Source of the DNA: Microgenomates group bacterium
GTDB lineage: Bacteria > Patescibacteriota > Microgenomatia > Daviesbacterales > UBA10151
Length of the DNA stretch: 64,000 nucleotides
Reading direction: 5' to 3'
Assembly (NCBI GenBank): GCA_041659805.1
Contig: JBAZXP010000001.1
Span: forward strand, 966,841-1,030,840
Both the position numbers and the translations under genes were made by a program. Shown one piece after another: positions 33,955 through 61,733 of this stretch; position 1 is the stretch's first letter, and the number at the start of each line of letters is the position of its first letter. The notes under the pieces are model-generated. The model was not told the origin of the DNA, did no database searches, and saw only the letters and a list, made by a program, of their open reading frames with translations.

Positions 33955-33958
33955 TAAT

Positions 33959-34978: not shown

Positions 34979-35017
34979 ATATTTATGATCTGATATTTGT
35001 AATAGTTTGTCAACGAA

Positions 35018-36037: not shown

Positions 36038-36039
36038 AA

Positions 36040-39240: not shown

Positions 39241-39243
39241 AAC

Positions 39244-40290: not shown

Positions 40291-40298
40291 ATAAAAAT

Positions 40299-42030: not shown

Positions 42031-42408
42031 CTAAAGGTGCTTAAATATATTTTTTATCTTTTCCATCATTTCTACAAGAGAAATATCTGATTTAACAAAA
42101 TAGCCCAATACCCCCATTTTATTCGCTTTTTTTACATCTTCCTCTTGTCCGAGATTTGATAGAACAATCACTTTTAAGTCTTTAAGATTTGCATCAGCTC
42201 TTAACTCTTCTAATACCTCAAAACCATCCTTAATGGGCATGACTAAATCTAAAAGCAGTAAGTCCGGTTTTTTCTGTCTCACGGCAACCAAAGCTGTTTC
42301 ACCATTCCCAACTATTAAAGTTTCATAGCCTCCTTTTAGCAGCTTAATTTTAAAAAGGTTGGCATAATATTTATCATCCTCTGCCACAATAATATATTTT
42401 TTATCCAT
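42031..42408 (-). CDS. stand-alone response-regulator receiver (CheY-like)
   Basis: IIVAEDD...DLLLLDLVMPIKDGFEVL receiver signature; 125 aa. Confidence 0.7.
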   Translation of the reverse strand: MDKKYIIVAEDDKYYANLFKIKLLKGGYETLIVGNGETALVAVRQKKPDLLLLDLVMPIKDGFEVLEELRADANLKDLKVIVLSNLGQEEDVKKANKMGVLGYFVKSDISLVEMMEKIKNIFKHL

Positions 42409-42410
42409 TT

Positions 42411-45351: not shown

Positions 45352-45410
45352 CCCCTTTTGAGATATGCATTTATCGTATCATAAAAAAAATGAGAATTCA
45401 GTAAGAATAA

Positions 45411-45971
45411 TTACTCTGTTTTGCCTGTCAGAAGAGCATCAATTACATCATGAGGTAATGCTGCAGCATTCAAAAGCGCTTTTCTAGCTAAAGTTCCGGT
45501 TTCAGACCCGATTTCATCAGCTGCTTTCAAAACACCGATAACTGCATCTTTAGCCAAATTGCCTGAATCTTCACCTATTTCACCTGCAGCCTTAATTGCT
45601 CCGTCAACTGTTGCCACTGCAGTTTCCCCAACATCCCCACCTACTTCCTTTGTTCCCTTAATAGCTCCTTCAGCTGCAGCTATTGTAGCTTCTTCCAAAT
45701 TCAATCCTGCTTCCTTTACCCCTTCAATAACTCCGGAAACAAGTCCTGTCACTGATTGCACTAGTGATACACCGGTATCAGAAGTTGCTTTAACTCCTTC
45801 AGATACTACATCTGCAATAGTTTCTTCAGTAGTGGTAACAACTTCTCCTCCGGCTTTTAAAGTAGTCACTACAGTTTCTTTTGCAACATCGCGGACGGTT
45901 CCATAAACATCACCAACACCGGATACTACAGAGGAAAGTGCATTTTTTAAATCTGTTGCAATATTGGACAT
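45411..45971 (-). CDS. hypothetical Gly/Ala/Val/Glu-rich repeat protein
   Basis: Imperfect ~17-19-aa repeats, e.g. GAIKGTKEVGGDVGETAVATVD / GAIKAAGEIGEDSGNLAKDAVIG / VLKAADEIGSETG; no family recognised. Confidence 0.35.
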   Translation of the reverse strand: MSNIATDLKNALSSVVSGVGDVYGTVRDVAKETVVTTLKAGGEVVTTTEETIADVVSEGVKATSDTGVSLVQSVTGLVSGVIEGVKEAGLNLEEATIAAAEGAIKGTKEVGGDVGETAVATVDGAIKAAGEIGEDSGNLAKDAVIGVLKAADEIGSETGTLARKALLNAAALPHDVIDALLTGKTE

Positions 45972-46003
45972 TAATTAATGATAAACACAAAATAAATAAT
46001 CTG

Positions 46004-46375
46004 TCAAGTTTCCTTAATCAGACTATTTATTTTATTCACTAAATCGTCCAAAGTCATGTCACTTTTAACAATATAATCTGTTGCCCCCAAACTTTTACCG
46101 CGATCGATATCTTCTTTCTGCCCCAAATTTGATGCTATTAAAACAGGAATGCTTTTGAGTTTTTCATTAGCCCTGATTTCTTTTAATACTTCAAAACCAT
46201 CTTTTTTAGGTAATACCAAATCCAGTAAGATTACGTCGGGAATATCCTTAGCTAAAACGCTTAATGCTTCCTCTCCATCAGCAGCAACAATGATTTCAAA
46301 ACCCGCCTTTGCTAGCTTGACACGGTAAGCACTGGTTAAAAATTGATCATCTTCCACAACTAGAACTTTGGCCAT
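46004..46375 (-). CDS. stand-alone response-regulator receiver
   Basis: KVLVVEDD...DVILLDLVLPKKDGFEVL; start set at MAKVLVV (46375) because the longer ORF overlaps the upstream receiver gene. Confidence 0.65.
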   Translation of the reverse strand: MAKVLVVEDDQFLTSAYRVKLAKAGFEIIVAADGEEALSVLAKDIPDVILLDLVLPKKDGFEVLKEIRANEKLKSIPVLIASNLGQKEDIDRGKSLGATDYIVKSDMTLDDLVNKINSLIKET

Positions 46376-46376
46376 T

Positions 46377-46742
46377 TTAAGGGATTTTTTTCCTGACAGC
46401 TTCCACAAGATCTTCCAAGCTGTAATTTGCTTTAATAAGATAATCTGATTGACCTGCAATAACAACCTGAAGAATTTTATCGTCATCCTGCAAGTTAGTT
46501 AAAACAATAACAGGAATATTTTTAGTTTCCTCTGATTCTTTTAATCTTTTTAAGACACTCATTCCATCTAAAACAGGCATGATTATATCCAAAAGAACTA
46601 AATCAAACTTTTCCTTGGCAATTTTATCCAAAGCTTCTTGACCATCGTATGCAACCCCAACTTCATAACCTTCACTGATCAATTTTTTGGTTAGAACTTC
46701 TACAACAGATCTTTCATCATCAACAACAAGAATCTTTTTCAT
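46377..46742 (-). CDS. stand-alone response-regulator receiver
   Basis: KILVVDDE...DLVLLDIIMPVLDGMSVL. Confidence 0.7.
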   Translation of the reverse strand: MKKILVVDDERSVVEVLTKKLISEGYEVGVAYDGQEALDKIAKEKFDLVLLDIIMPVLDGMSVLKRLKESEETKNIPVIVLTNLQDDDKILQVVIAGQSDYLIKANYSLEDLVEAVRKKIP

Positions 46743-46769
46743 AGCATCTTTATTCTGTACATATTTAGC

Positions 46770-49118
46770 TTAGCTGTCAAGTGAGACTTCACCTTTTTTT
46801 GGTTTTGATCCTGAAAGTGGTAAGGAAAAGAAGAAACTCGTTCCTTGCCCAACTTTACTTTCAAACCACATCTTTCCTCCGGAAGATTCGACTATTGCGA
46901 TAGCTAAATAAAGACCTAAACCATTACCGTTAGGTTCAATCTTAACTGCATCGGCACTTCTGTAAAATTTAGTAAATACTTTATTTTTATCTTCTTCAGG
47001 AATTCCTATCCCTGTATCAGTGATTTGTGATATTACATCTGTATCTTTTACAAAGATCTTAACCGAAATCTTTCCTTTAACAGGAGTGTACTTAATCGCA
47101 TTTGTTAAAAGATTCATATAAACCTGTCTGATCAGAGCAGGATCAATATTGATTTTGGATAAATTTTCTGCAATATCGGTATTTAAGACCTGCTTCCTTT
47201 CATCTATTTTCTGTTGAAGTTCTTTTATCATTCCTTTTAATAGATCTCCTATATTTGTGGGTGTTGGTGCAATAACAATTCTTCCTGATTCAATGCGGGA
47301 AACATTAAGCAATGCATTTACAAGTTCTATCATTCTTTCAGTAGACATGGCAATATTTTTACTGAAATCTTTTTGTTCTGCGTCAAGCTTTGTATCCCCT
47401 AATAATTCCACAAACCATTTAATTGCAGAGAGTGGAGTCCGGAGCTGATGGGAAGCAAGCGAGATAAACTCAGTCTTCATCCGATCTATTTGTCTTTCTT
47501 TTGATACATCCCGAAAAACAACTACACAACCTACAACTACCCCATTTTTATCTTTTAGGGGTGCTGCCGAATCGGCAACAGCAATTTTCCTACCCTCGCT
47601 ACACTCCAACATTGTGTGATTTGCCATTTCCTGTACCTTTCCGGTAGCCATCGCATCTTTAATAAATTTATCATTGATGGTATCCGGTTTTGCCTCATAT
47701 ACAAACCTTAAAACCTCATTGTAATTTTTACCCACAGCGTCTTTGATTTCATGACCACACATTTTTAACGCTACATCGTTAATCAGAATAATAGACAGAT
47801 TCTTATCTACCACAAATACCCCATCTCCAATACTATGCAAAATCGCATCCATCCTATCTCTTTCTACAGCAGTTTTATTTTTTTCATCTTCCACATCTTC
47901 TAAAATATTTAAAATTGCTGCTCTTTGTTCTTCCATAGCACGGCTTCTTTCGACTAGTTCTTTTGTTTGTTCTTCAACCCGTTTATCAACTTCTATCCTA
48001 GATTGTTTAATAGAGGCCACCATTACATCAAATGATCTTGATAATTGCCCCACCTCATCCCGGGTATCTGTACCAACCTTATAATCTAAATTTCCTTTTT
48101 CAATAACTTCTGTACCTTCATGCAGCTCTTCAAGCGGTTTAGTAATACTACGAGATACCAAAAAGGCAACAATAATAAAAATTAGTCCTCCGATAATATT
48201 GGCTGCAACATGAAAAATTATTTGCTGTCTCACAGGATCAGAAACTTCAGATTGGTCAATTTTAGCAATCAAGCACCAACCTGATTCCTGAATATAACTG
48301 TGAGTCCCATAAATGTTTACACCCCGGTAGTCAACATATTGTTTAAGTTGAGGCATATTCAAATGATTTCCAATAGGCGCATCTTTATATTTGGCTATTT
48401 CTTCAGGATTAAAACAATCCTTAGCATTTTGTGTTTCCACTTTTTCCTTTAAAATAACATCACTGCCTTTAAAAAGTGACGGAGTCAAAAACATCCTGTC
48501 TTTATTAATTAAAAACGTTTCGCCGGTTTGTCCTAATCCTGACCTATCTTCCAATAAATTAAAAAGCCCATCTGGCTTAACCCTTGCAACAACCACACCT
48601 AATGTTTTCCCTGTTTTACTATCAATAATCGGAGCTGATAATGCATATCCAATCTTATTAGTTGTTGATGATAAGTAAATATCCTTAATATAAGGGCCTT
48701 TTAAACCATTAACAAAGTAAGGATCGTTATTTTTATCTTCGCCTACCTGTGTTTTATCAGTAGACAAAACAACCTTACCTTTATTATCTAATAAAAAAAT
48801 TTCATTAAAAATACTATCCTCCTTCAAATAAGCACCGAGTAATTGTTGAGCACTTGTTGCATATTCAGACCTTATTTGACCTGACTGTAGAAATTCCTGA
48901 AAACCATCCTCCTGGCTAATAATTATAATTATAGTCTTTTGATCTTGAATAAATCTTCTTATCTCATCATCACGCATTTCAGAAACACCTTGAATATTAT
49001 TTAAATAAGTAGCCCTAATAGCTCTTGTATTTAACTCAACAGTAACCAAAGTAACAATAGTCACGATAATCACAAAAACCACTAAAAAATTAATTAATAT
49101 CCTTGTCCTGATTTTCAT
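46770..49118 (-). CDS. membrane sensor histidine kinase with Cache-like periplasmic domain, HAMP, PAS, HisKA and HATPase_c
   Basis: Two TMs bracketing a ~270-aa extracytoplasmic domain; H-box SLASHQLRTPLSAI; G-box GNGLGLYLAIAIV. Confidence 0.8.
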   Translation of the reverse strand: MKIRTRILINFLVVFVIIVTIVTLVTVELNTRAIRATYLNNIQGVSEMRDDEIRRFIQDQKTIIIIISQEDGFQEFLQSGQIRSEYATSAQQLLGAYLKEDSIFNEIFLLDNKGKVVLSTDKTQVGEDKNNDPYFVNGLKGPYIKDIYLSSTTNKIGYALSAPIIDSKTGKTLGVVVARVKPDGLFNLLEDRSGLGQTGETFLINKDRMFLTPSLFKGSDVILKEKVETQNAKDCFNPEEIAKYKDAPIGNHLNMPQLKQYVDYRGVNIYGTHSYIQESGWCLIAKIDQSEVSDPVRQQIIFHVAANIIGGLIFIIVAFLVSRSITKPLEELHEGTEVIEKGNLDYKVGTDTRDEVGQLSRSFDVMVASIKQSRIEVDKRVEEQTKELVERSRAMEEQRAAILNILEDVEDEKNKTAVERDRMDAILHSIGDGVFVVDKNLSIILINDVALKMCGHEIKDAVGKNYNEVLRFVYEAKPDTINDKFIKDAMATGKVQEMANHTMLECSEGRKIAVADSAAPLKDKNGVVVGCVVVFRDVSKERQIDRMKTEFISLASHQLRTPLSAIKWFVELLGDTKLDAEQKDFSKNIAMSTERMIELVNALLNVSRIESGRIVIAPTPTNIGDLLKGMIKELQQKIDERKQVLNTDIAENLSKINIDPALIRQVYMNLLTNAIKYTPVKGKISVKIFVKDTDVISQITDTGIGIPEEDKNKVFTKFYRSADAVKIEPNGNGLGLYLAIAIVESSGGKMWFESKVGQGTSFFFSLPLSGSKPKKGEVSLDS

Positions 49119-50059
49119 TTTTTACTCTCCATTTCCATAATCTTCTTTTTCAGCTCAATCATTTTAAGCTCCCTACCAACCATATAGTTATTTGTTTTTT
49201 CCAGCTCTTTAGTTCTATTTATAACTCTACTTTCAATATTTTCTTTTGCACTTTGAAGTTGAGTTGACATTTCATTAAAGTTTTTTGCTAATTCTCCGAT
49301 TTCATCGTTTGATTTTATATTTACTTTTACTTGTAAATTACCTGCAATAATTTGCTTAGTTGCCTCGCTTAAGCTATCAACAGGTCTAACGATTAAACGT
49401 GCAATAATAATGGCTAAAATCACGGCTATCAAAACAGTAATAATTACCGCAATGCTTGTATAAAATATCCCCATGTCTAAAGCATGCTGAATATATAGAA
49501 AATTATTATTTAGATTATCTGTTGAAACAATTAAAACATCATCATAATGTCTACCCTGTTTTTCAATATAACTGGTTAAACCATTCTTATAAATTTCCTT
49601 TTGTGTTGAATATTCTTCTCCATCTAAAATTTTAACAGCCTCTGTTTTTTTACCATTATCAACCAAATCTATGGCTTTAGTTTCCATATTAACCAGCGCC
49701 AGATTCGCTAAGTCAATTGATGCAAACATTCTTTTATCTTCGTTATCTCCAAGTTCTAATGCTTGTTGAATTTGATTATCTAATTCAGGAGATATCTGTA
49801 AATATCTATCCTTCCATTTTTTATCCCCGGTAAAAGCATAATTCCTGGCAGATTGAGTTAAAACTTCATCATAATATCTAGTGAACTGGGCTATACTATT
49901 TAGACTGACAGTATTACTCAGGTTTTGTATATTCTGTGTGCTTTCTGCACTAACCCGCTTATCCATTGCATCTAAAGCAATAATTGAGGCAATCCCAATA
50001 ATAAGTACCGGGATTATTCCTAAAAAAACAGCTAGAAATATTTTTGTTCTAATTTTCAT
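49115..50059 (-). CDS. membrane protein with periplasmic 4-helix-like domain, HAMP domain and coiled-coil but no output domain
   Basis: Two TMs; HAMP-like IVRPVDSLSEATKQIIAGNLQVKVNIKSNDEIGELAKNFNEM. Confidence 0.5.
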   Translation of the reverse strand: MKIRTKIFLAVFLGIIPVLIIGIASIIALDAMDKRVSAESTQNIQNLSNTVSLNSIAQFTRYYDEVLTQSARNYAFTGDKKWKDRYLQISPELDNQIQQALELGDNEDKRMFASIDLANLALVNMETKAIDLVDNGKKTEAVKILDGEEYSTQKEIYKNGLTSYIEKQGRHYDDVLIVSTDNLNNNFLYIQHALDMGIFYTSIAVIITVLIAVILAIIIARLIVRPVDSLSEATKQIIAGNLQVKVNIKSNDEIGELAKNFNEMSTQLQSAKENIESRVINRTKELEKTNNYMVGRELKMIELKKKIMEMESKK

Positions 50060-50249
50060 TGATTATAAGCTCTTTTAATTTTTGGACTATCTCCATATGT
50101 CTAATTTCATCATCCCTAATTGAAGCCAAAATTTCCGCCTCCTCTGGATTATCTAAAGTTTCTAAAAATTCATCATATAAATCTCTCGCTTCTTTTTCCA
50201 AACCATACAAATCTTCAAACATTTTGATTAAAATATCTTTATTATCCAT
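50049..50249 (-). CDS. small hypothetical acidic protein
   Basis: 66-aa ORF in an operon-like position between the HAMP and PAS genes. Confidence 0.25.
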   Translation of the reverse strand: MDNKDILIKMFEDLYGLEKEARDLYDEFLETLDNPEEAEILASIRDDEIRHMEIVQKLKELIINEN

Positions 50250-51360
50250 TTGTCTGTTCCTTCTCCATTTGCTTTAAAAAAGCCAAATGACGCGTGCTAT
50301 CATCAATTAATACTTGTAGTAATTTTTTACATTCTTCTTTTATTTCGTCCGCTAATTTTGATTGGTTAATTTGATCAAAATACAGTCCTTTAATCTTTGT
50401 CACAAAAATTTCTTCAATATTCTCCCCTTCTCTAAACTTATCTTTCCATGAAAGATTTTCTATTTTATTTTTTAAATTCATACCTCCTTCTAATTCTTTT
50501 ACCCTTTCCTTTAATTCAATCATTTTGAGCTCACGTCCTACCATTAATTTATTCATTTTTTCCTGAGCATCAAAGGCTTCCTTAGCTTGCTCTTCCGCTT
50601 TTTTCCGTTCAGTTATATCAGTATGAACTGCAACTAAAACTTTTCCATATTCCGAATGATCAAAAACTGAAACATTGGCATAACACCAAAAAGGAGTTCC
50701 GTCTTTTTTAACATTGTTTACTTCTCCGTGCCATTCACCCGTTTTTGCCAAAATTCCCATAATCTCTTTGGCGGTTTCTTCCGGTTTTTTATCAGTCGGC
50801 GCATTAACAATCGAGGCAGGTTTTCCGATCATTTCGCCTGAATTGAAACCAAACATTTTCTCAAATTTCGGATTGGTATAAACGATAGTTCCGTCAGAGG
50901 CTCTAATCAAATAAATTCCTTCAGCCAAATTCTTTATTATTTCATCACGGAATAGCAATTCCAACCCAGTTTTTTTGCGCTCAGTTATATCCCAAAATAT
51001 TCCCAATATACCTATCGTTTGTCCTTTTTCTTTAATCGGCACTTTAACAGTCTGCACCCAATATTTTTGACCCTCAACTTCATATGCTTCTTCAACCTCC
51101 TTCTTTTCACCGGATTTTAAAACTAGCTTATCATCAGCCCTATATTTTTCTGCCAATTCTTTCGGGTAAAAATCAAAATCAGATTTTCCGGAAATTTCTG
51201 AGGCTTTAATTTTTAAATCTTTGGCATAATTTTCATTACAGAGGACATAATTTAAATCTTTATCTTTATAAAAAATTTTTTGAGGAAGATTATTAAACAA
51301 ATTAATAGCAACAATATTCTGAGTTGCGAGAGATTCTACGGCAGACTTGTTATTGGGCAT
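50242..51360 (-). CDS. cytoplasmic tandem-PAS domain protein with C-terminal coiled-coil (no kinase domain)
   Basis: Two PAS-like segments (FYKDKDLNYVLCNENYAKDL...; IIKNLAEGIYLIRASDGTIVYTNPKFEKMFG...). Confidence 0.5.
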   Translation of the reverse strand: MPNNKSAVESLATQNIVAINLFNNLPQKIFYKDKDLNYVLCNENYAKDLKIKASEISGKSDFDFYPKELAEKYRADDKLVLKSGEKKEVEEAYEVEGQKYWVQTVKVPIKEKGQTIGILGIFWDITERKKTGLELLFRDEIIKNLAEGIYLIRASDGTIVYTNPKFEKMFGFNSGEMIGKPASIVNAPTDKKPEETAKEIMGILAKTGEWHGEVNNVKKDGTPFWCYANVSVFDHSEYGKVLVAVHTDITERKKAEEQAKEAFDAQEKMNKLMVGRELKMIELKERVKELEGGMNLKNKIENLSWKDKFREGENIEEIFVTKIKGLYFDQINQSKLADEIKEECKKLLQVLIDDSTRHLAFLKQMEKEQTNG

Positions 51361-51422
51361 GATTAATATAATCCTTCTTTACATCATGCTAAATTTTGAG
51401 TAAAAAGGCAACTGGGGATAAG

Positions 51423-51782
51423 TTACTGAGGCTGACTAATTTTTCGCTCTAAAATATCTAGTGAAGATAGTACTTTTTGGGAAATAGCAATTAAATCCAG
51501 AAAATATTTTTGGACCATGGCTTCATCTTTTGCATCATTAAATTTTATAATCATTGCTCCAGTTGCATGTAAATCATCATGTGCTTTTTCCAGTTCCTGC
51601 ATCTCTACCAAACCGCTATATTTCATTTTCCCTTCAGTATCAAGCCACTTACCTAAATCACAACTATGAGGAGAAATTATTTGGTCTTCTGTTAAACCAT
51701 CTTTTCCATCTAAATAAGATTGGAGCTTGGTTAGCCAAATAAGGTGTGTTGTTTTTGCTTGGGCAAAATCCAAAGCGATCAT
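51423..51782 (-). CDS. CZB (chemoreceptor zinc-binding) domain protein
   Basis: HLIWLTKL...SPHSCDLGKWLD...HDDLH matches the CZB H-x3-C-x-G-x-W core with flanking His. Confidence 0.45.
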   Translation of the reverse strand: MIALDFAQAKTTHLIWLTKLQSYLDGKDGLTEDQIISPHSCDLGKWLDTEGKMKYSGLVEMQELEKAHDDLHATGAMIIKFNDAKDEAMVQKYFLDLIAISQKVLSSLDILERKISQPQ

Positions 51783-53189: not shown

Positions 53190-54689
53190 TTAATCTATCA
53201 AGTCAGGTTGATCTTTTGCTTGGGCTTGCCCATATTCGGTATCCAATTCCTGACCAATTTTTTCAAGTAATGGTTCTTCTTTGTGGGATACTCTAAGCGG
53301 AATTTCTTTTAGGAAAAGCGAAGCAATAAAGCCAACTCCCACAAAACTAGCTGCAGTTAGAAAAACTGGTGAAAGGGAATTAGCAAAAGCTATATTTTTT
53401 GGCATTGAAGTTAAATCTTTAGCTAACCCAGAATTAAATAAGCTTCCTAAAATTGCGATTCCAATAGTCCCTCCTATACTTCTGAAAAGTTGTATTGATG
53501 AGGTAACCACCCCTAATTTACTGTGTTCAAAAGCATTCTGGACTATAACAGTAAAAACAGGCATGGCTGCACCCATTCCCATCCCTAAGAAAATCATTCT
53601 GAAGGTAAGATCAAATTGAGAGGTTGCAGTACTCATTTGTGAGAGCAAAAACATCCCGATAGTGGCAACAGCAAGGCCTGAAACAGTCACAATTTTATAC
53701 TTGCCAGTACCTGAAACAATCCTTCCTCCGATAATATTTGTGAGCACCTGCATAATCACCATTGGTGTCATCAAAGATCCTGAGTTTGTGGCAGTTATAC
53801 CCATTGCCCCCTGTGCAAACAAAGGGATATATAAAGCTGCGCCGAACATTCCCGCTCCGAAAAAAAATGAGGAAATAATAGAAACCGAAAAAATTGAATT
53901 TTTAAAAAGATGCATGGGAATAATCGGTTCTTTTGCCGACTTTTCGATAAAACAGAAACTTAATAACAAGATTAACGCGGATATTAAAAGACCTATGATT
54001 TGCACGGATTGCCAAGGATATTCTGTGCCTCCCCAAACCACTCCCAATAAAAGAGTAATTAAACCTAGAGCCAAAGTTATGGCACCTAAAAAATCAATTG
54101 AACATTCTCTAATCGAAAGGGTAATTTTAGGAATAAATAAACCAATTGCCAAAAGAGCCAAGATACCCACAGGAATATTAATATAAAAATTCCATCTCCA
54201 GGAAAAACTATCAGTAATTATTCCTCCCAAAATCGGCCCAACAATTGAAGCAAGCCCAAAAGTTGCTCCCAATACCCCTTGCCATTTTCCGCGCTCGCGT
54301 GGTGTAAAAATATCACCAACTATGGCAAAAGCATTAGCCATAATTGCTCCACCACCTATCCCTTGCAAACTTCTGAAAATTATCAGCTGAATCATATCCT
54401 GTGACAAACCGGAAAGAACAGAACCGATCATAAAAATTATGATTCCGGAAAAGAAAAACCATTTTCTGCCATAAATATCGGAGAGTTTTCCATAAATTGG
54501 AACTGTTACAGTAGAAGCCAACATATAGGCAGTAAATACCCAGGAAATGTGATTCAGGCCACCCAGTTCTTTAGCAATGGTGGGCATGGCAGTTCCCACA
54601 ATGGTTCCATCCAAAGCTGCCAAAAAAATGGCTAAAAGCACCCCAAGCATTACTAATGTTTTTTGTTTTGTAGAAATTTCAGCTAACAT
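53190..54689 (-). CDS. MFS transporter, 14-TM drug:H+ antiporter (DHA2/EmrB-QacA-like)
   Basis: ~14 hydrophobic helices and MFS signature motifs (GKLSDIYGRK-like motif A region). Confidence 0.75.
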   Translation of the reverse strand: MLAEISTKQKTLVMLGVLLAIFLAALDGTIVGTAMPTIAKELGGLNHISWVFTAYMLASTVTVPIYGKLSDIYGRKWFFFSGIIIFMIGSVLSGLSQDMIQLIIFRSLQGIGGGAIMANAFAIVGDIFTPRERGKWQGVLGATFGLASIVGPILGGIITDSFSWRWNFYINIPVGILALLAIGLFIPKITLSIRECSIDFLGAITLALGLITLLLGVVWGGTEYPWQSVQIIGLLISALILLLSFCFIEKSAKEPIIPMHLFKNSIFSVSIISSFFFGAGMFGAALYIPLFAQGAMGITATNSGSLMTPMVIMQVLTNIIGGRIVSGTGKYKIVTVSGLAVATIGMFLLSQMSTATSQFDLTFRMIFLGMGMGAAMPVFTVIVQNAFEHSKLGVVTSSIQLFRSIGGTIGIAILGSLFNSGLAKDLTSMPKNIAFANSLSPVFLTAASFVGVGFIASLFLKEIPLRVSHKEEPLLEKIGQELDTEYGQAQAKDQPDLID

Positions 54690-54748
54690 ATTTGTTTTGC
54701 AAAAATTTATTGTAACTTAATTTTATATCTTTGTAAAAAGGAAAAGAA

Positions 54749-55690
54749 TTATTCCTGATAGTTATCAGGATCGCAAAACTCATAAGACAATTTTAAACCG
54801 GTATGCTTTCCTATATCTACCCATTTTGGTACAAAATTCGGAGCCAACATTTCAAATTGTGTAGGACGGTCAAACATACATTCTATAATGGGTTTCATAT
54901 CCAATTTTTTGGGAGCTGTCAGGGTTTTTACGATTTTGTCTTCTAATGAATGCTGGGATAAAGAAAGCTCGTTACCTTTATATGTATATTTAGCCAAAAA
55001 TAATCTATTATCTAAACAGTCACTTAAGTCTAGTGGAGCTAAGATCATGCCTGCAGGAGCAAAAATATCAAGCCTTCTATATTTTCCCTGCGGATAATAG
55101 TTAAGGTTTCTTAAATCCAGTATTTTGAACTGATCATCAGGTAACCAGCCATTATGATACCAGGCCGCACCAATTGAAGGAGCAAATATCTGACCATCGG
55201 TTGTTTTTGCACTGAAACAACGCCCTAATTCCAAACCACATATTAATTCATTCTGATAATCTACCAATGCCGAAATCCCGCTTGTATCGATTAAATCATC
55301 CGGTACAGGTACGTCTACATTAACACTTTCACCCCCGCTCTCACTTTCAATACATATATCAAAATTTCCTTCAACCCTTAATGCATATTTTGATGACGGA
55401 TAATCCATATTTCCATAAAATGTATAAGTTGTTTTTAAATCACCTGCTTTAACAACACTTTTTAATCCTGTATGATCCAAGATGGCGAAGGGTTTACCGG
55501 AGCTGCTAAATAAATACTCTGCATATTGTTCTTCTATAATATAGCATCCTTCTTTGTGCGCAGGTACAAGAACAGAAAGGAAACCGTTTTGGGCGTTCAC
55601 TGCCAGAACCCAACCATCTTTGAATTTTTCAGGAATTTCCCAATGATCGGGAACGTCCTCAAAAGTAAACCGTGGCAAAAAATCTGACAT
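54749..55690 (-). CDS. hypothetical protein
   Basis: 313-aa ORF; no motif. Confidence 0.35.
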   Translation of the reverse strand: MSDFLPRFTFEDVPDHWEIPEKFKDGWVLAVNAQNGFLSVLVPAHKEGCYIIEEQYAEYLFSSSGKPFAILDHTGLKSVVKAGDLKTTYTFYGNMDYPSSKYALRVEGNFDICIESESGGESVNVDVPVPDDLIDTSGISALVDYQNELICGLELGRCFSAKTTDGQIFAPSIGAAWYHNGWLPDDQFKILDLRNLNYYPQGKYRRLDIFAPAGMILAPLDLSDCLDNRLFLAKYTYKGNELSLSQHSLEDKIVKTLTAPKKLDMKPIIECMFDRPTQFEMLAPNFVPKWVDIGKHTGLKLSYEFCDPDNYQE

Positions 55691-55742
55691 ATGCAGGGAA
55701 TTATATAAGAAATTGGCCTAAAATAAAAGCTATAGGATTAAT

Positions 55743-57064
55743 TTAATAAGTCCAGGTATGACCACGCCACTCAATTTTAGGATCTGGAAGTATTTCTCCA
55801 ACCTGGGCAATTTCTACTCCGTATTTAGAACCTATCACCGTTAATCTGTCTGCGTCTTCGTTATTTTCAACGACAGCCACGAACCCCAATCCTCTGTTCC
55901 ATTGCTCACAAGCCCTCCTTTGATCAATCATTTTTTTAGATTGTTCTTCCGGCAAATGTTTTTCAGCCAGTTCCATTAACATACTTACAGCTTTTGGATC
56001 TTCAAATACCGGTTCTATATGTGCCCCCAACTTTTTTACTTCAAGCATTCTTTTAACTTTTTCAGGAATACCTCCACCACTAATATGAGCTGCACTGATA
56101 ATATTAACTTCCTTCTCACCATCAATTCCACCCAAAGCATCATACATAACTCTTCCATAAAGATTAGATGGTCTTAACACCTCCTCCACAATCTTAGAAT
56201 CCAATTCATGCCATGGCACCAATACCTGTTCTAAAAAATTATGTCCCATCAATTCGTTTAAAAACGGAATTGTCTTTCCGTCTCTAAAGTCACTCATCAA
56301 ATCTCTGTTTATACTACTTGAAATCATTCCCTTTTCTTTTAAATGATCGGCCAAGTGTTCCAGGAAATAAGCCTCTTTTGAAGGATAACCTTGATTAAAT
56401 AAATATGCAGCTTCTAAAATTCCCCTGGCTTTAGATAACCCATTAGATCTGATAGATTTTTCTCTCCAGCCCATTATTTTTTGGCCCGGTTTTAACCCTG
56501 TACCCAAAATTAGCTTTGCTTCATTAATCAAATATAAACCCGTTGCATTCCAGTTAACCCGGGATGGACCAAACCCTGAAGTTCTGTAACTCAGTTCTGC
56601 TGTTTCACCATTTAACAAAGCAAAGCCCCCCCCTCGTTACAGGCGGCTGCCGCGCCTCTTGCAAGCGCTGAAATCATTCCTTCTGTTGCTGTATTGGTAT
56701 CCACTACATTTGCGAAACCTAACAGAAAATGCCCAAATCTATCAGTATCCCCTTTAATCATAGAGGCAACATCAAAAGCCAAAGTGTCAAAATAATCATA
56801 ATTGGCATCTCCTTCTTTAAAAGTAGGCCTGTTTAATTGAGATAATCTTTCTGCAAGTTCAGGTTTTGTACCAATACCGTCTGCAGTTACCCAAACTGAA
56901 AAAGGAGCAGGATTGATACCATATAAATGATATTGAGGTGTATCTAAATATGTAATCGGTCTGTATCTTGGATCAGGAAAATTATTTCTGGTTGAAACTA
57001 TAACATCACCTAAGGTATAGGATGCTTTTCCTTTTTCATCCTGAGTTAATTCAATACTACTCAT
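55743..57064 (-). pseudogene. purM: phosphoribosylformylglycinamidine cyclo-ligase (AIR synthetase, PurM) interrupted by a -1 frameshift in a G8 homopolymer
   Basis: N-part carries DGIGTK; C-part begins LNGETAELSY. The two ORFs (56612..57064, 55743..56618) meet at the run CCCCCCCC 56626-56633; adding one G gives continuous ...ACNEGGGFALLNGETAEL... Confidence 0.6.
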
Positions 57065-58385
57065 ATATCACTCCTAAACACTTGATTATCTCCTTCTATG
57101 CTAATTTCATGCACCCCAGCATATGCATTTTTTCTGGCGCTTTGCAGAGTCTTTCCTTCTCCCATCACATGAATTACCCTGCCACCTGCAACTCTATAAT
57201 CCTTACCATCATCCATCATCCCTGCTCCATATAAACTTACTCCCGGCTTAGCCGCTGCATTATATATTCCTGTTATCTTTTTACCCATTACCCTGGAATA
57301 ATCTCCCGGATAACCATTTGCTGCAATAGCTACCACAACCCTTCTTAAATTATCCCTTTTAATTTTTAATCCTTTTAAAGATCCTCCTTCTGCCAGATGC
57401 ATTCCTACCTCGAACCAATCATTTTTGATCCCTGGTAAAACAAGTTGGGCTTCTGGATCACCCCACCTGGCATTAAACTCCACATTCATAATCATAGGCT
57501 CACCATTTCTGATAATTTTCATGCAAGAAGCATACAGCACCCCTATATAAGGAGCTTTCAATTGAGCAAAAGCATCAAGCATTGGGACAATCATGTTTTT
57601 TCTACTTCTTTCCTGACTTCCTTATTCACAATTTCGGGATTATTATTTCCACCCATGCCACCTGTATTAGGTCCTGTATCACCGTCTCCGATTGGTTTAT
57701 GATCATTGGCACTCCCTAAATAGGTAAATTCCTGACCATTACATAAAACAAAGTAGGAAAATTCTTCCCCAGGCGTTCCGTCATCATTCATTAAGTTTTC
57801 TTCTATCAAAAATCTCTTACCTGCTTCACCGAATTGATCCAAAGAACGGATCCGATCATAAGCCTCTTCCTTTGTTTTAGCCCTCATCGCGCCCTTACCT
57901 TTAGCTAAACCTGAAGCCTTAATCCAACGAGTTCGTTCTTCCCAGGTTTTAATACATCCAATTGCAAATTCAGGATCATCAAATTCCATAAAATCAGGCT
58001 GGTTTATTCCTACCACTCTTCCAATAAACCTGGTAAGTGCTTTGTCTGATTCAATTTTTCCTGCAGCTCTACTTGGACCAATTGTCAAAAACCCAGCGTT
58101 TCTGGATTCATCTGCAACCCCTGCTGCTATTGCATCATCTTGTGCAACATCAACCAACTCAACATTATAATGATCAAAAAGTTGGACTAATGATTTACTA
58201 TCAGTGGTTTTAACTTTACGAAATTTAGGATTATCAATTAGTTTTCCTCTGGTTACCAGTTTTATTCCATCATTACCAGGGACAACCAGAACTCCATCTA
58301 CCAGATCGCTTTCAGCATATTTTTCCGCCTCAGCTGCTTCTCTTCCTCCACCTCCAACTATTGCTACTATATTTTCTTTATGCAT
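57061..58385 (-). pseudogene. purD: phosphoribosylamine--glycine ligase (PurD) split into two ORFs by a 1-base frame change at an A5/T5 run
   Basis: N-part (57591..58385) VAIVGGGGRE...GPNTGGMG; C-part (57061..57594) GVLYASCM...VEFNARWGDPEAQ; ATGA overlap at 57591-57594. Inserting one A in the AAAAA run restores ...EVEKNMIVPMLDAF... Confidence 0.6.
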
Positions 58386-58458
58386 GAATTATTTTTTGAA
58401 AAAACGTTTTGTCTGTATAGATAGTAGAAAAGTGAGTTTTAAAAAACAAGACCCCAAA

Positions 58459-58935
58459 TTATGGGTTAAGCAAAACAATACTTAAATTTAATATAGTTGC
58501 AAAAGAAACCCAAGCCAAGTACGGATATAAAAGGTTGGCTGCTGTTTTATCAACCAAATTTATGCGCCTGATTGTTTCCAAAATCGCGATCCATAAAATA
58601 ATAATTATTAAAAATCCTGCTAAAAGGTTATGTAATCCAAAAAATACCAGCGACCAGATAACATTTAATATAAGCTGAACAAAAAATGCCACATAAGCAT
58701 TATTTCTTATACCCTTGTCTGTTTTTTTCTTGGTCCAAAGTAAATATAAAGTTAAACCCATCAAAAAATATAAAATGGTCCAAACTGGTCCAAAAAGATA
58801 ATTTGGCGGATTAAAAGGGGGTTTATTTAAATAAATATACCAAGATGAGATAGCAGGAAAAGTAAAAACTGAACCCAAAATACCTGCTCCTTCACAAAGT
58901 AATATGGCAGAAATTAGCTTGAGCAGTTTGGGCAT
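58459..58935 (-). CDS. tspO: TspO/MBR tryptophan-rich sensory protein
   Basis: 5-TM, 158 aa, Trp/Pro-rich loops (FNPPNYLFGPVWTILYFLMG). Confidence 0.7.
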   Translation of the reverse strand: MPKLLKLISAILLCEGAGILGSVFTFPAISSWYIYLNKPPFNPPNYLFGPVWTILYFLMGLTLYLLWTKKKTDKGIRNNAYVAFFVQLILNVIWSLVFFGLHNLLAGFLIIIILWIAILETIRRINLVDKTAANLLYPYLAWVSFATILNLSIVLLNP

Positions 58936-58944: not shown

Positions 58945-60027
58945 TTAAACTATAATTTTAGATTTTGCACCAATAAAGAAACTTGTTGTCTTTTTTTCTT
59001 TTTCACCATCTATAAGCTCACTTTCAGGACCAATTAAGCTGGAATCAATTAGACCCGGAAATTTTTTGATTTTAACTTTTTCCATAATTTCGCTATTTTC
59101 AACCTCAGATCCTTCTATTTCGCATCCGTCTGAAATTGCCGAATATGGTCCGATAAATGAATCCCGGATAATAACATTATCACCAATAATGACAGGGCCT
59201 TTGATTTTTGATCTTTCGATAGTACAACCCCGCCCAACTTTGATATTGCCATCAACTGAAACATCTGACCCATATTCACTTTCTATCTCATTGTCTTTGA
59301 CCAGATATTCCACCATGTATTGATTTGTCTCAATCCAATCATCAAATTTACCTGGATCCAACCATTTACCTTCATATTCCAAAACGTCAACTTGATATTT
59401 ATGGTCAATTAACCACTGAAATGGTGCACTAATTTCCAACTCTCCTCTTGGGGAAGGCTTGATTTGATCTTCACCTTTAAAGCATTTAAAAACATTATTA
59501 TCAAAAAAATATAATCCTGGAATAGCAAAATCATGAGGAGGGTTTTCTGGCTTTTCTACATACTGAATTAGTCTTCCGTTTTTATCAAAAAAAGGAACTC
59601 CTAAACGTCTGTTCTCTTCATGATGGACCATAGGGACCAAAGCATTAGGTTTATTTTTTTCAAAGTGCGTTACAAACTTCTTTATACCATCAACAAAAAT
59701 GTTATCTCCTAAATGCAAGAAAAACGATTCTCCGTCTAAATATTCCTCACAAATTTGAAAAATATTTGCCAGTCCCAAAGGTTTTTCCTGCAGCACATAT
59801 GTGAATTTTAACCCCCAACGGGAACCGTCACCCAAAACTGATTTTGCCTGATCCAAATATGCTGCATCATAAGTAATTGCAACTTCTTTAATCCCTGCTT
59901 CAGCCACAGTTTCAATAGGGAAAAAAATTAGAGGCTTATTGGCAATCGGAAGAAAATGTTTGTTGGAAGAAAATGTCAGGGGCTGCATTCTTGTGCCCCT
60001 ACCACCTGTTGGAATAATTGCTTTCAT
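58945..60027 (-). CDS. sugar-1-phosphate nucleotidyltransferase (RmlA/GlmU-like N-domain with C-terminal left-handed beta-helix)
   Basis: MKAIIPTGGRGTRMQPLT...NKHFLPIANKPLI signature; C-terminal hexapeptide repeats. Confidence 0.65.
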   Translation of the reverse strand: MKAIIPTGGRGTRMQPLTFSSNKHFLPIANKPLIFFPIETVAEAGIKEVAITYDAAYLDQAKSVLGDGSRWGLKFTYVLQEKPLGLANIFQICEEYLDGESFFLHLGDNIFVDGIKKFVTHFEKNKPNALVPMVHHEENRRLGVPFFDKNGRLIQYVEKPENPPHDFAIPGLYFFDNNVFKCFKGEDQIKPSPRGELEISAPFQWLIDHKYQVDVLEYEGKWLDPGKFDDWIETNQYMVEYLVKDNEIESEYGSDVSVDGNIKVGRGCTIERSKIKGPVIIGDNVIIRDSFIGPYSAISDGCEIEGSEVENSEIMEKVKIKKFPGLIDSSLIGPESELIDGEKEKKTTSFFIGAKSKIIV

Positions 60028-60062
60028 AGACTTAAAAGATTATATAACATTCTCTTTTATAA

Positions 60063-61733
60063 TTACCAGCTGCCTCCTCCACCTCCACCTCCACCTCCAC
60101 CAGAAGATCCTCCACTTGAAAATCCGGAGGATGAGGACGGAGCATGAGTTGTAAAAGTGCTGGACATAGAGCTGTTCATACTATCAATTGCAGAATAAAA
60201 AGCTATATTTCCTGAATACCAGGTTGGATGATAGTTTGGATAAATTACTTTTAACTGATCCATAAATTCTTTGATATAACCCAAAGCAATTGCATAAGGA
60301 ATATATTTTTCAACAGTGATTAAATTTTTGGCATACCAAGTATGTTCTCTGCTCATATTTTTTAAGAAAATCTTTAATCCATCGATCTTAAAGTCTATTT
60401 CATCTCCCTTGGCAGTTCTGCCATTTAATTTAAAGAAGAATAAGAGCAAAACGCCAAACAATAAAACTCCTCCAAAAAACATAGAAAATATTGCTCCTGT
60501 TAAAAATAAAGCTTTTTGAGTTTTAGGATTTTTTGTATAAAAACCTCTTTCAATAAGCGAATCAAAAACATCTTTTTCAAAACTTTGAAAAGTTAAATAA
60601 AAATCTTTTTTCAGTGAACTGATTTTAATTTTATCTTCTTTTCTAAAAAAAGACTGCAAAAGACCCCATTCAAAAGCCGTCGTTCCCTCATTGTAATTGT
60701 TCAATTTAATCATAAGAAAATCATCTCCTCCTCCAAACATTCCTAAAACTTTTTCCTGTTTTATTTGTTCTATTTTTATATATTTTCTGATTGCCAAATC
60801 AAAGATTGTGGCAATAACATCATTTTGATCAACAAAATAAGCATCAATACTACCAGCTTCTGCAGGAGCTACTCGCTTTCCTTTATCATCTATGGGAAAG
60901 TCAAAATTAACAGAAGGCGCACCAAACCTGGCTTTTCTTTTGTTTTTAAAATACCAAATTAAGAGTCCTGGAGCTAAAATCAGATTGAAAAAAATAGGAA
61001 CGGCAAATATTCCTAAAATTAACCAGAGGCTTATTTCAGTATCAGTTTTTTCCGGTGATTCTTTTTGTAAAACGCTAGGAGGAAAAGTGTCCTTTGGAAA
61101 ACCCCAAACCCCGGTTAAACCTTCATAAGCACTTAATTCTTTAGTTGATACAATTAAGTTTTTTTGGTTTAACAAGCAGTCTTTGTTTGTAGATCCTTCA
61201 GGTCCTGTAAAACAAGTATCTTTATTAAAATCAACTCCAAAATCTGTGGATAACGAAGCAGAGGCTTTAAGAATCGGTATCTGCCAATTGTTACCGGTAA
61301 TATTCCAATAAATTTCATCATGATCTTCATAATTGCTGCCAATTCCATTCCTAACAAGATAAGAAATAGTATAGGTATGAGGACCAGTTATGGTGACATC
61401 AGCCTTTCCGATTTTTACCGACGCTGTTTTGGAATCACTTTGCAAAGAATAATTTTCTTCTTTCCCATCTCTTAAAATATTTTTAAAATCTACTTCAATA
61501 ACTCTATATAAATTACCTACACTTGATACAAGAGGAATATCTCTGTAGATTCCATGCAGATAAACATCGCCAAAATCATAAACAATTGTTTCTGTAATAT
61601 CCATTGTGCCATCCTGGTGTGCAATAATCTCGGTATCGAAAGAGGTGATTTCCTCAGCTTGCACACCAGAATAGATTGCTCCCCAAAAAACAAACAGAAA
61701 TAAAAAGAGGAAGCTTTTCAAAATATTTTTCAT
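60063..61733 (-). CDS. DUF2207-family membrane protein with Gly/Ser-rich C-terminal tail
   Basis: Signal peptide, ~230-aa extracytoplasmic domain, TM segments, C-terminal GFSSGGSSGGGGGGGGGGSW tail characteristic of DUF2207. Confidence 0.5.
   Translation of the reverse strand: MKNILKSFLFLFLFVFWGAIYSGVQAEEITSFDTEIIAHQDGTMDITETIVYDFGDVYLHGIYRDIPLVSSVGNLYRVIEVDFKNILRDGKEENYSLQSDSKTASVKIGKADVTITGPHTYTISYLVRNGIGSNYEDHDEIYWNITGNNWQIPILKASASLSTDFGVDFNKDTCFTGPEGSTNKDCLLNQKNLIVSTKELSAYEGLTGVWGFPKDTFPPSVLQKESPEKTDTEISLWLILGIFAVPIFFNLILAPGLLIWYFKNKRKARFGAPSVNFDFPIDDKGKRVAPAEAGSIDAYFVDQNDVIATIFDLAIRKYIKIEQIKQEKVLGMFGGGDDFLMIKLNNYNEGTTAFEWGLLQSFFRKEDKIKISSLKKDFYLTFQSFEKDVFDSLIERGFYTKNPKTQKALFLTGAIFSMFFGGVLLFGVLLLFFFKLNGRTAKGDEIDFKIDGLKIFLKNMSREHTWYAKNLITVEKYIPYAIALGYIKEFMDQLKVIYPNYHPTWYSGNIAFYSAIDSMNSSMSSTFTTHAPSSSSGFSSGGSSGGGGGGGGGGSW

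What the first reader, a model, noticed from the sequence alone, without database searches (positions are those of the whole stretch)
55743..58385. purM and purD are both interrupted by single-base frame changes in homopolymers
purM: the N- and C-terminal ORFs meet in a C8 run on the plus strand (G8 on the coding strand, 56626-56633), remarkable in a 35%-GC genome; one extra G restores ...ACNEGGGFALLNGETAEL.... purD: the two ORFs overlap by ATGA at 57591-57594, and one extra A in an AAAAA run restores ...EVEKNMIVPMLDAF...GVLYA.... Either both are homopolymer sequencing errors, or the de novo purine pathway is decaying, since only these two pur genes are present here. Alternatively the G8 tract is a slippage-prone phase-variation site.
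Basis: seen in the sequence. Interest (0 to 1): 0.5.

Follow-up and report, generated by a model that had tools for sequence, protein, structure and literature searches.

The report
Broken remnant of a purine operon
Two neighbouring purine-synthesis genes (purD and purM) of a tiny-genome Microgenomates (CPR) bacterium each carry one frameshift, sit where the genes between them seem to have been deleted, and are most likely real, recent pseudogenes, which is ordinary gene loss.

Summary
On the minus strand, purD (57061-58385) and a purM-like gene (55743-57064) are each split by one frame change needing +1 nt.

Random sequencing error is unlikely:
- A separate Logan assembly of run SRR6484324 is identical over 4.5 kb.
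- Two NCBI MAG accession sets plus JGI and ENA hold the same fragments, and no intact allele is on record.
- No other gene in the 64 kb is split.

Comparison with relatives points to operon erosion:
- The 70%-identical relatives have purN-like, purD, purS-L … purQ, purM, MFS. In the window purD abuts purM.
- PurD is the only one of 95 homologues lacking the C-terminal tail, and the junction reads like a microhomology deletion.
- The G9 repair adds a glycine found in none of 116 homologues. The family length corresponds to G6, so G8 is +2.
- Deleting one T from the relative's GAAAATAAC gives the window's purD sequence exactly.

Against old decay: neither protein evolves faster than its relative, and purM keeps every conserved residue. 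The lesions are therefore recent, or leaky rescue occurs. No recoding signals were found. Whether purL lies elsewhere in the genome is unresolved.

The parts
57061..58385 (-). purD (phosphoribosylamine-glycine ligase) pseudogene. It has one frameshift and a truncated 3' end.
   Evidence: Pfam finds GARS_N, GARS_A and GARS_C spread over two ORFs. The repaired protein scores 301.4 bits on TIGR00877 against a cutoff of 288. Full-length homologues are 430-470 aa, and the best is 70% identical.
57591..58385 (-). purD N-terminal ORF fragment (264 aa). It ends at the TGA at 57593-57591.
   Evidence: It is deposited as a separate CDS, WCV81_04370 (MFA5933483.1 / MFA6453938.1).
57596..57601 (-). purD frameshift site: A6 on the coding strand (GAA AAA ACA TGA). 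One missing base relative to homologues.
   Evidence: sequence; relative L002 reads GAA AAT AAC ATG, and deleting the T gives the window sequence exactly; homologues align across the site with no gap.
57061..57594 (-). purD C-terminal ORF fragment (177 aa), carrying the end of GARS_A and GARS_C.
57061..57069 (-). Inferred deletion junction. The coding strand reads GAT ATA TGA, overlapping the purM ATG. It creates a premature purD stop about 13 codons early and joins purD directly to purM.
   Evidence: the window matches L002-like purD up to GATATA, then L004-like sequence from TGAGTA, sharing a 3-nt ATA; the window's PurD is the only one of 95 that ends at 'DI'; the others run 4 to about 20 residues further and include a Gly that is at least 95% conserved.
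55743..57064 (-). purM-like (AIR synthase, long-form Microgenomates family) pseudogene with one frame lesion.
   Evidence: AIRS_C domain. TIGR00878 scores 73 bits, below the 236-bit cutoff. All PDB hits are PurM. 116 full-length homologues of 400-470 aa, the best 70% identical. purS-L, purQ, purM context in relatives.
56612..57064 (-). purM N-terminal ORF fragment (150 aa).
   Evidence: Deposited as WCV81_04360.
56626..56633 (-). purM frame lesion: G8 on the coding strand (GAG GGG GGG GCT). This is 2 nt longer than the family's in-frame length (G6), or 1 nt short of a G9.
   Evidence: L003 reads GAG GGG GGT TTT; 0 of 116 homologues have the extra Gly; canonical PurM 2btu also lacks it.
55743..56618 (-). 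purM C-terminal ORF fragment (291 aa from an internal TTG), carrying the GETAE motif and AIRS_C.
   Evidence: Deposited as MFA5933480.1 / MFA6453935.1.
53190..54689 (-). MFS transporter. It is the downstream synteny anchor showing that the locus is orthologous to relative L004 (purQ, purM, MFS).
   Evidence: the L004 ORF that starts 135 nt after purM begins MLADISLRQKTLIM, and the window's MFS begins MLAEISTKQKTLVM. Pfam MFS_1.

Best explanation
These are real, recently fixed inactivating mutations in the last two genes of an eroding de novo purine operon in a Microgenomates (CPR/Patescibacteria) genome.

Inferred order of events:
1. The ancestor carried purN-like, purD, purS-L, purQ, purM, then an MFS transporter, as the 70%-identical relatives still do.
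2. A deletion of roughly 3.7 kb between short ATA repeats removed the last ~13 codons of purD together with purS-L and purQ, and joined purD to the purM start. The purN-like gene was also lost.
3. With the FGAR-to-FGAM step gone, purD and purM were no longer useful. Each then picked up one frame-breaking indel: loss of one base in GAAAA(T/A)AAC in purD, and expansion of a Glu-Gly-Gly G6 tract to G8 in purM.

Shown: the lesions, their reproducibility across assemblies, the truncated PurD, the gene order in relatives, and the absence of other split genes.

Inferred: the deletion itself, the order of events, and that no purL exists elsewhere in the genome. The cell would then rely on salvage; purA and prs in the same window are intact.
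For: Reproducibility:
- Logan contig L001 (run SRR6484324) is 100% identical to window 54178-58710, including both lesions.
- All four fragments occur under two NCBI accession sets and in JGI, ENA and Logan, on at least 4-5 contigs of different lengths.
- No full-length allele near 100% identity exists in the 5.8-billion-protein collection. The best full-length hits are 70% identical.

Specificity:
- Pfam on about 60 ORFs shows complete domains everywhere else.

Erosion signature:
- L002 has purN-like, purD, purS-L. L004 has purQ, purM, MFS. L003 has purN-like, purS-L, purQ, purM. The order purD, purS-L, purQ recurs in Levy-, Woese- and Curtissbacteria loci.
- The window has purD|purM with an ATGA overlap and no purS-L, purQ or purN-like remnant.
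- PurD is uniquely truncated, 1 of 95, at a junction that reads as purD plus the purM upstream region with ATA microhomology.
- PurD departs from 4 of 78 columns that are at least 95% conserved. Only 6 of 94 homologues do as badly.

Lesion type:
- G8 is +2 relative to the in-frame G6 of relatives. The G9 repair gives a Gly that 0 of 116 homologues have.
- The purD lesion equals deletion of the T in the relative's sequence.

Rest of the pathway:
- No PurS-L on a 1,130,263-bp contig appears among the best 120 protein hits or the best 80 genome loci.
- CPR genomes generally lack complete de novo nucleotide synthesis (PMC11809585).
Against: There is no sign of relaxed constraint:
- Relative-rate tests show window purM has fewer unique substitutions than its relative (20-31 against 36-43). 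purD has only a non-significant excess.
- Repaired purM keeps all 71 columns that are at least 95% conserved.
- Each gene has exactly one frame lesion and no extra stops.
All events must therefore be recent.

Other weaknesses:
- Gene order varies among Microgenomates. In L005 and L006, purD and purM lie without purL nearby. purS-L/purQ could therefore sit elsewhere in this genome.
- The two whole-genome checks are only suggestive. In the genome scan the positive control was swamped. An unfused PurL could score below the listing cutoff.
- The assemblies may share reads or come from one project. No read-level data were seen.
Confidence: 0.65

Rival explanations
1. Sequencing or assembly artefact. 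The true genome has G9 (or G6) and A7, both genes are intact, and the indels are consensus errors at homopolymers.
For: Both sites lie in or next to homopolymers, and G8 is the longest G/C run in the window. Apart from the single indels, both genes look fully functional: purM has 0 of 71 conserved-column violations and there is no rate acceleration. A 1.13-Mb single contig could come from long reads, which are prone to homopolymer errors.
Against: An independent Logan assembly of one run is identical over 4533 bp. Two MAG accession sets plus JGI and ENA carry identical fragments, and no intact variant is on record. The window has 11 A/T runs of 8 and 59 of 7, yet no other split gene. G9 would add a Gly absent from all 116 homologues, and G6 would require a 2-nt error. 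An A6 run is too short for typical homopolymer miscalls. Error does not explain the truncated PurD C-terminus or the missing purS-L/purQ.
Confidence: 0.12
2. The frameshifts are real in the DNA, but the genes still give some full-length product, or switch on and off. Possible routes are -1 ribosomal slippage or RNA-polymerase slippage on G GGG GGG (and Lys-tRNA slippage on AAA-A in purD), or replication slippage that makes the G8 tract a phase-variable switch.
For: In the zero frame the purM site is formally an X XXY YYZ heptamer (GA G GGG GGG), and a -1 shift gives the homologous frame. Low-level compensatory frameshifting on a G7 run is documented for herpesvirus thymidine kinase (PMC5009743). 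Frameshifted genes with no degradation, rescued by transcriptional slippage, are known in Buchnera and Blochmannia (PMC3017870). The lack of rate acceleration and of further lesions fits continued use. The tract has evidently changed length in this lineage, from G6 to G8 or G9.
Against: No stimulatory RNA structure lies 5' or 3' of either site (z-scores -0.08 to +1.17). The purD site has no slippery heptamer in register. The frameshifts are not conserved: every relative is in frame. The tracts (G8, A6) are shorter than the runs of at least 9 used in known bacterial slippage rescue. Every assembly on record has the same tract length. The rescued PurM would carry a Gly insertion that no homologue has. 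Rescue would still leave PurD truncated and, apparently, the pathway without purL/purQ.
Confidence: 0.15
3. Rearrangement without pathway loss. purD was moved next to purM while purS-L, purQ and purN remain elsewhere in the genome. The two frameshifts would then be very recent, possibly strain-specific deleterious mutations in an otherwise working pathway.
For: Gene order is variable in Microgenomates: purD alone in L005, and purM, cobA-like, purD in L006. The whole-genome checks for purL are not decisive. There is no long-term relaxation of constraint.
Against: Two independent knock-outs in the same pathway, fixed in all assemblies, are hard to explain if the pathway were needed. The closest relatives keep the contiguous operon. 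No PurS-L from this contig appears in either top list.
Confidence: 0.08

Closest known systems
Frameshift pseudogenes formed during reductive genome evolution (for example homopolymer indels as first steps of gene erosion in Buchnera and Blochmannia; PMC3017870)
   Same: It is a small-genome, host-dependent lineage. Single indels in or next to short runs break otherwise well-preserved biosynthetic genes. Neighbouring pathway genes are lost by deletion, while salvage and interconversion genes are kept.
   Different: The organism is a CPR/Patescibacteria bacterium rather than an insect endosymbiont. One tract is poly-G in a 36% GC genome rather than a long poly-A. The tracts are shorter (G8, A6) than the runs of at least 9 discussed for endosymbionts.
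Transcriptional-slippage rescue of frameshifted genes (Buchnera/Blochmannia poly(A) tracts; Thermus dnaX; Citrobacter tssM, PMC4256274)
   Same: A frameshift sits inside a homopolymer in a gene that shows no other degradation and no elevated evolutionary rate.
   Different: Known cases use A/T runs of about 9 or more and are often conserved across populations or species. Here the runs are G8 and A6, the relatives are in frame, and no transcript data exist.
Low-level compensatory ribosomal frameshifting on a G run (herpes simplex thymidine kinase G7±1; PMC5009743)
   Same: An indel in a run of 7-8 Gs breaks an enzyme gene. The G string can formally support -1 re-pairing of Gly-tRNAs.
   Different: That case is viral and under drug selection, with about 1% rescue shown experimentally. 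Nothing comparable was tested here, and the second gene (purD) has no such motif.
Phase-variable contingency loci with poly-G/C tracts (Campylobacter, Neisseria, Haemophilus; from general knowledge)
   Same: There is a poly-G tract of 8 within a coding sequence in a low-GC genome, with evidence that its length has changed in this lineage.
   Different: Contingency loci are typically surface, restriction-modification or virulence genes and show tract-length polymorphism among reads and strains. This is a biosynthetic gene with one tract length in all assemblies.
Canonical PurD (TIGR00877) and PurM (TIGR00878) of the de novo purine pathway
   Same: Repaired PurD passes the equivalog cutoff and has the GARS_N/A/C architecture. 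The PurM-like protein has AIRS_C, the GETAE motif, best PDB hits to PurM, and a purS-L, purQ, purM context in relatives.
   Different: Both genes are interrupted. PurD lacks its C-terminal tail. The PurM-like protein belongs to a long-form (410-460 aa) Microgenomates family that scores far below the PurM cutoff (73 against 236 bits).

Membership tests
PurD, phosphoribosylamine-glycine ligase (TIGR00877 / Pfam GARS_N, GARS_A, GARS_C) | Three-domain architecture and a score above the curated equivalog cutoff | tested here: met
GARS_N, GARS_A and GARS_C are all found. TIGR00877 scores 301.4 bits against a cutoff of 288, covering profile positions 3-419 of 425.
PurD, phosphoribosylamine-glycine ligase (TIGR00877 / Pfam GARS_N, GARS_A, GARS_C) | One uninterrupted reading frame with a complete C-terminus | tested here: not met
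   The frame breaks inside GARS_A, between profile positions 148 and 152. It is the only one of 95 sequences lacking the 4 to ~20 residue tail after 'DI', which includes a Gly that is at least 95% conserved.
PurM, AIR synthase (TIGR00878 / Pfam AIRS + AIRS_C) | Score above the curated equivalog cutoff | tested here: not met
   73.2 bits against a cutoff of 236.35. Pfam detects only AIRS_C. The whole homologue family is a divergent long form.
PurM, AIR synthase (TIGR00878 / Pfam AIRS + AIRS_C) | Conserved GETAE-type motif, PurM as the nearest solved structure, and genomic association with purL/purQ | tested here: met
   LLNGETAEL aligns to ALIGGETAEM of 2btu, and all 17 PDB hits are PurM. 0 of 71 conserved columns are violated. 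Relatives L003 and L004 show purS-L, purQ, purM.
PurM, AIR synthase (TIGR00878 / Pfam AIRS + AIRS_C) | One uninterrupted reading frame | tested here: not met
   The G8 tract shifts the frame, and a TAA stop follows at 56612-56614.
Programmed -1 ribosomal frameshift site (dnaX / IS3 type) | X XXY YYZ slippery heptamer in the zero frame | tested here: inconclusive
   purM: GA G GGG GGG is formally in register, but all-G heptamers are poor shifters (general knowledge). purD: GAA AAA ACA has no heptamer in register.
Programmed -1 ribosomal frameshift site (dnaX / IS3 type) | Stimulatory structure a few nucleotides downstream (or a hairpin just upstream for slippage) | tested here: not met
   Folds of the 60-nt flanks and of the roughly 126-nt spans give z-scores from -0.08 to +1.17 against shuffles.
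Programmed -1 ribosomal frameshift site (dnaX / IS3 type) | The frameshift is conserved in relatives | tested here: not met
   All 116 PurM-like and 94 PurD homologues examined are single full-length ORFs. The DNA of the closest relatives is in frame.
Phase-variable contingency locus (homopolymer slipped-strand mispairing) | A long homopolymer within the ORF | tested here: met
   Met for purM only: G8 is the longest G/C run in the window. The purD A6 run is ordinary.
Phase-variable contingency locus (homopolymer slipped-strand mispairing) | Tract-length polymorphism among cells, strains or samples | tested here: not met
   At the assembly level, all contigs on record encode identical fragments and no ON allele exists. 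Read-level heterogeneity is not testable with these tools. The metagenome pattern scan found nothing because the organism is absent from that collection.
Transcriptional-slippage-rescued frameshift genes of reduced genomes | A/T tract of about 9 or more, with mixed transcript lengths | tested here: not met
   Tract length is not met: G8 and A6 against the runs of at least 9 in PMC3017870 and PMC5009743. Transcript heterogeneity is not testable here.
Pseudogene from pathway erosion | Loss of the other pathway genes from the genome | tested here: inconclusive
   The window has no purN-like, purS-L or purQ. No PurS-L from the 1,130,263-bp contig appears in the top 120 proteins or top 80 loci. However, the control was swamped and the whole genome could not be read.
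Pseudogene from pathway erosion | Relaxed selection (accelerated protein evolution, loss of conserved residues) | tested here: not met
   Relative-rate tests show no acceleration. purM has 0 of 71 violations. purD has 4 of 78, which is weak. This implies recent inactivation if the genes are pseudogenes.

The most novel reading that the evidence does not exclude
The frameshifts are real but not fully inactivating. A CPR bacterium would keep a purD-purM pair whose expression depends on slippage at a G GGG GGG tract (and at AAA-A in purD). That slippage could be leaky ribosomal or RNA-polymerase slippage, or replication slippage that turns the tract into an on/off switch for a metabolic function. 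It would extend the endosymbiont-style 'impaired and rescued by polymerase infidelity' phenomenon, or phase variation, to Patescibacteria and to a poly-G tract.
Probability: 0.08. Interest if true: 0.6.

Novelty: new member of a known kind. Interest (0 to 1): 0.2.

Why it matters
The main value is for annotation and metabolic reconstruction. The four CDS fragments deposited for this MAG should be read as two pseudogenes, and the organism should not be credited with steps 2 and 5 of de novo purine synthesis. It is also a clean snapshot of how a CPR genome loses a pathway: an internal operon deletion first, then frameshifts in the stranded genes, while purA and prs are kept. That fits the view that these bacteria depend on scavenged nucleotides. 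No new mechanism is implied unless the low-probability slippage-rescue reading proves true.

Tried and rejected
- Scan of JGI metagenome contigs for the sequences flanking the G tract with any tract length, as a polymorphism test: 0 hits. The pattern does match the window, so the organism is simply absent from that collection and the result is uninformative.
- Concatenated query (window PurD N-terminal part plus the relative's PurS-L) against GTDB genome contigs, meant as a positive control and a purL test in one scan. The PurS-L hits filled all 80 places, so the control could not be seen. The loci were still useful for synteny.
- PurS-L protein search looking for 'longest contig 1130263': none in the top 120. 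This is suggestive only, because an unfused or fragmentary PurL could score below the listing cutoff.
- Literature search for SRR6484324 to learn the sequencing platform: no paper.
- Other candidate split genes (overlapping ORF pairs at 9.6-11.8, 21.4-24.0, 25.2-26.8 and 46.0-46.7 kb, and runs of short ORFs at 33-39 and 51-52 kb): all are separate complete domains.
- The L005 417-aa gene upstream of purD as a possible purM: no similarity.
- Functional two-piece enzymes: rejected because both breaks fall inside domains (GARS_A; the AIRS N-domain just before GETAE).
- Alternative genetic code (UGA read as Gly): rejected because reading through the purD TGA stays in the wrong frame (sequence).
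- RNA structure stimulators of recoding: none.
- tRNA and Rfam scans of the window: nothing.
Full report
**What is there.** The finding lies on the minus strand of a 36% GC window. By exact protein matches the window belongs to a 'Microgenomates group bacterium' MAG with a 1,130,263-bp contig (locus tags WCV81_04360/04370).
- purD is split into a 264-aa ORF (58385..57591) and a 177-aa ORF (57594..57061). Pfam places GARS_N and GARS_A positions 2-148 in the first, and GARS_A positions 152-194 plus GARS_C in the second.
- A purM-like gene is split into a 150-aa ORF (57064..56612) and a 291-aa ORF (56618..55743, AIRS_C).
- The frames meet at an A6 run (57596-57601) and a G8 run (56626-56633) on the coding strand. 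Each needs one added base (a -1 shift) to restore full-length proteins of 441 and 440 aa.
- The G8 run is the only G/C run longer than 6 in the window. The A6 run is one of about 185 A/T runs of that length.

**Are the lesions real?**
- Logan contig L001, assembled independently from run SRR6484324, is identical to window 54178-58710, including both lesions.
- The four fragments occur under two NCBI accession sets (MFA5933480-83, MFA6453935-38) and in JGI, ENA and Logan, on contigs of at least four size classes.
- No full-length allele near 100% identity is on record. The best full-length hits are 70% identical.
- Pfam on about 60 further ORFs shows complete domains and no other split gene, although the window has 11 A/T runs of 8 and 59 of 7.
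- Two random errors hitting adjacent genes among about 60 has a probability of about 0.03.
- I could not see reads or learn the platform, so a shared systematic error is not formally excluded.

**What the relatives show.** All 116 PurM-like and 94 PurD homologues examined are single ORFs.
- At the purM site, relatives read E-G-G-F (L003: GAG GGG GGT TTT, a G6 run). G8 is thus the family length plus 2 nt, or a unique G9 minus 1. Either way the tract has been changing length in this lineage.
- At the purD site the 70% relative reads GAA AAT AAC ATG. Deleting the T gives the window's GAAAAAACATG exactly, so this lesion need not be a homopolymer event.

**Operon context.**
- The two 70%-identical contigs from sample SRR22388067 carry purN-like, purD, purS-L (L002), and purQ, purM followed 135 nt later by an MFS transporter (L004). 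The start of that transporter (MLADISLRQKTLIM) matches the window's MFS gene (MLAEISTKQKTLVM), so the loci are orthologous.
- L003 (61% identical) has purN-like, purS-L, purQ, purM.
- The order purD, purS-L, purQ recurs in Levy-, Woese- and Curtissbacteria loci.
- In the window, purD abuts purM with an ATGA overlap. No purS-L, purQ or purN-like remnant is detectable in 64 kb.
- The window's PurD is the only one of 95 sequences that stops right after 'DI'. The others continue for 4 to about 20 residues and include a Gly that is at least 95% conserved.
- At the DNA level the window follows L002-like purD up to GATATA and then L004-like sequence from TGAGTA (the purM start), sharing ATA. This is what a microhomology deletion would leave if it removed the purD tail, purS-L and purQ (about 3.7 kb by the relatives' gene sizes). 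This step is an inference, because the true ancestor is not available and gene order varies in more distant relatives (L005, L006).

**Is the rest of the pathway elsewhere?** This is not settled.
- A search with a relative's PurS-L returned no protein from a 1,130,263-bp contig among the best 120 hits.
- A genome-collection scan returned none among the best 80 loci.
- An unfused PurL could fall below the listing cutoff, and my positive control was swamped.
- The window keeps an intact purA (8269-9579) and prs (29190-30224). That fits a cell that interconverts and salvages purines.
- CPR genomes are generally reported to lack complete de novo nucleotide synthesis (PMC11809585).

**Evidence that cuts the other way.**
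- Repaired PurM keeps all 71 columns that are at least 95% conserved. PurD departs at 4 of 78 (I66L, Q227N, G287S, and the missing C-terminal Gly), which only 6 of 94 homologues match or exceed.
- Relative-rate tests show no acceleration. purM has 20-31 unique changes against 36-43 in the relative. purD has 31-45 against 22-40, which is not significant.
- Each gene has exactly one frame lesion.
- So either all events are recent, or some product is still made.

**Recoding test.**
- GA G GGG GGG is formally an X XXY YYZ heptamer in register, and low-level shifting on a G7 run is documented for herpesvirus thymidine kinase (PMC5009743).
- However, neither site has a flanking structure better than shuffled sequence (z from -0.08 to +1.17).
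- purD has no heptamer in register.
- The frameshifts are not conserved in any relative.
- The tracts are shorter than the runs of at least 9 involved in endosymbiont slippage rescue (PMC3017870).

**Membership.**
- Repaired PurD passes the NCBIfam equivalog cutoff (301.4 against 288 bits).
- The PurM-like protein does not (73 against 236 bits). It belongs to a long-form Microgenomates family whose PurM role is supported by motif, PDB hits and operon context.

**Verdict.**

| Reading | Confidence |
|---|---|
| Real, recent pseudogenes in the stranded remnant of a pur operon | about 0.65 |
| Leaky rescue or phase variation | about 0.15 |
| Sequencing error | about 0.12 |
| Rearrangement with the pathway intact elsewhere | about 0.08 |

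This is an ordinary kind of event, namely gene erosion in a reduced genome, seen in a new organism. Its interest is low, except as an annotation correction and a tidy example of stepwise pathway loss in CPR bacteria.

Noticed in passing
window 8269-9579 (-) and 29190-30224 (+): Intact adenylosuccinate synthetase (purA; Pfam Adenylsucc_synt positions 6-412 of 416) and PRPP synthetase (prs). Purine interconversion and PRPP supply are kept while the two de novo genes are broken.
   Followed up: partly
window 54749-55690 (-): A 313-aa ORF with no Pfam hit lies between purM and the MFS transporter. In the 70% relative L004, purM is followed directly (135 nt) by the MFS gene, so this ORF is an insertion here or a loss there.
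   Followed up: partly
window 55743-57064 and homologues P0001-P0120; L003 10001-11305, L004 260-1567: A 'long-form PurM' family of 410-460 aa is common in Microgenomates. Pfam usually finds only AIRS_C, and the NCBIfam purM score is far below cutoff (73 against 236 bits). Yet the gene sits in a purS-L, purQ, purM context. It is about 90 residues longer than canonical PurM.
   Followed up: partly
L002 1-804; L003 5420-6259; also L007, L009, L012, L022, L026 just upstream of purD/purS-L: A 267-279 aa protein with only a faint match to PurN / Formyl_trans_N (27 bits against a cutoff of 150) is consistently placed at the head of the pur cluster in relatives. It may be a divergent GAR transformylase. 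It is absent from the window.
   Followed up: partly
window 18993-26794: An NAD salvage island: NrtR-type regulator (NUDIX + winged-helix domain), isochorismatase/nicotinamidase-like protein, cytidylyltransferase-NUDIX fusion, NAD synthase with a CN-hydrolase domain, NAPRTase, NadR-like protein (cytidylyltransferase + AAA_28), and a PnuC transporter.
   Followed up: no
window 33463-41984 (-): A type IV pilus-like cluster: several small proteins with the N-terminal methylation motif, a T2SSF (PilC-like) protein and a T2SSE/MshEN ATPase (PilB-like). This fits the DNA-uptake machinery described for Patescibacteria.
   Followed up: no
window 42031-51782 (-): A dense signalling block: two PAS/HAMP histidine kinases (789 and 782 aa), three stand-alone receiver domains, a HAMP/4HB protein, a double-PAS protein and a chemoreceptor zinc-binding (CZB) protein. 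That is a lot of sensing for a 1.1-Mb genome.
   Followed up: no
window 12125-17771 (-): A 1124-aa protein with a single AAA_5 (dynein-related/MoxR-like) domain near its C-terminus, followed by a 755-aa protein with no Pfam hit. Function unknown.
   Followed up: no
window 59956-60147 (+): An antisense ORF translates to a run of 11 prolines. This implies a G-rich, non-homopolymer repeat on the minus strand in the short gap between the DUF2207 gene and the nucleotidyl-transferase gene.
   Followed up: no
window 56634-56665 (-): The stretch just upstream of the G8 tract is locally very GC-rich (GCGCGGCAGCCGCC) and encodes an Ala run (RGAAAAC) that the relatives lack (they read KGLTEAC and KGSKQAC).
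   Followed up: no
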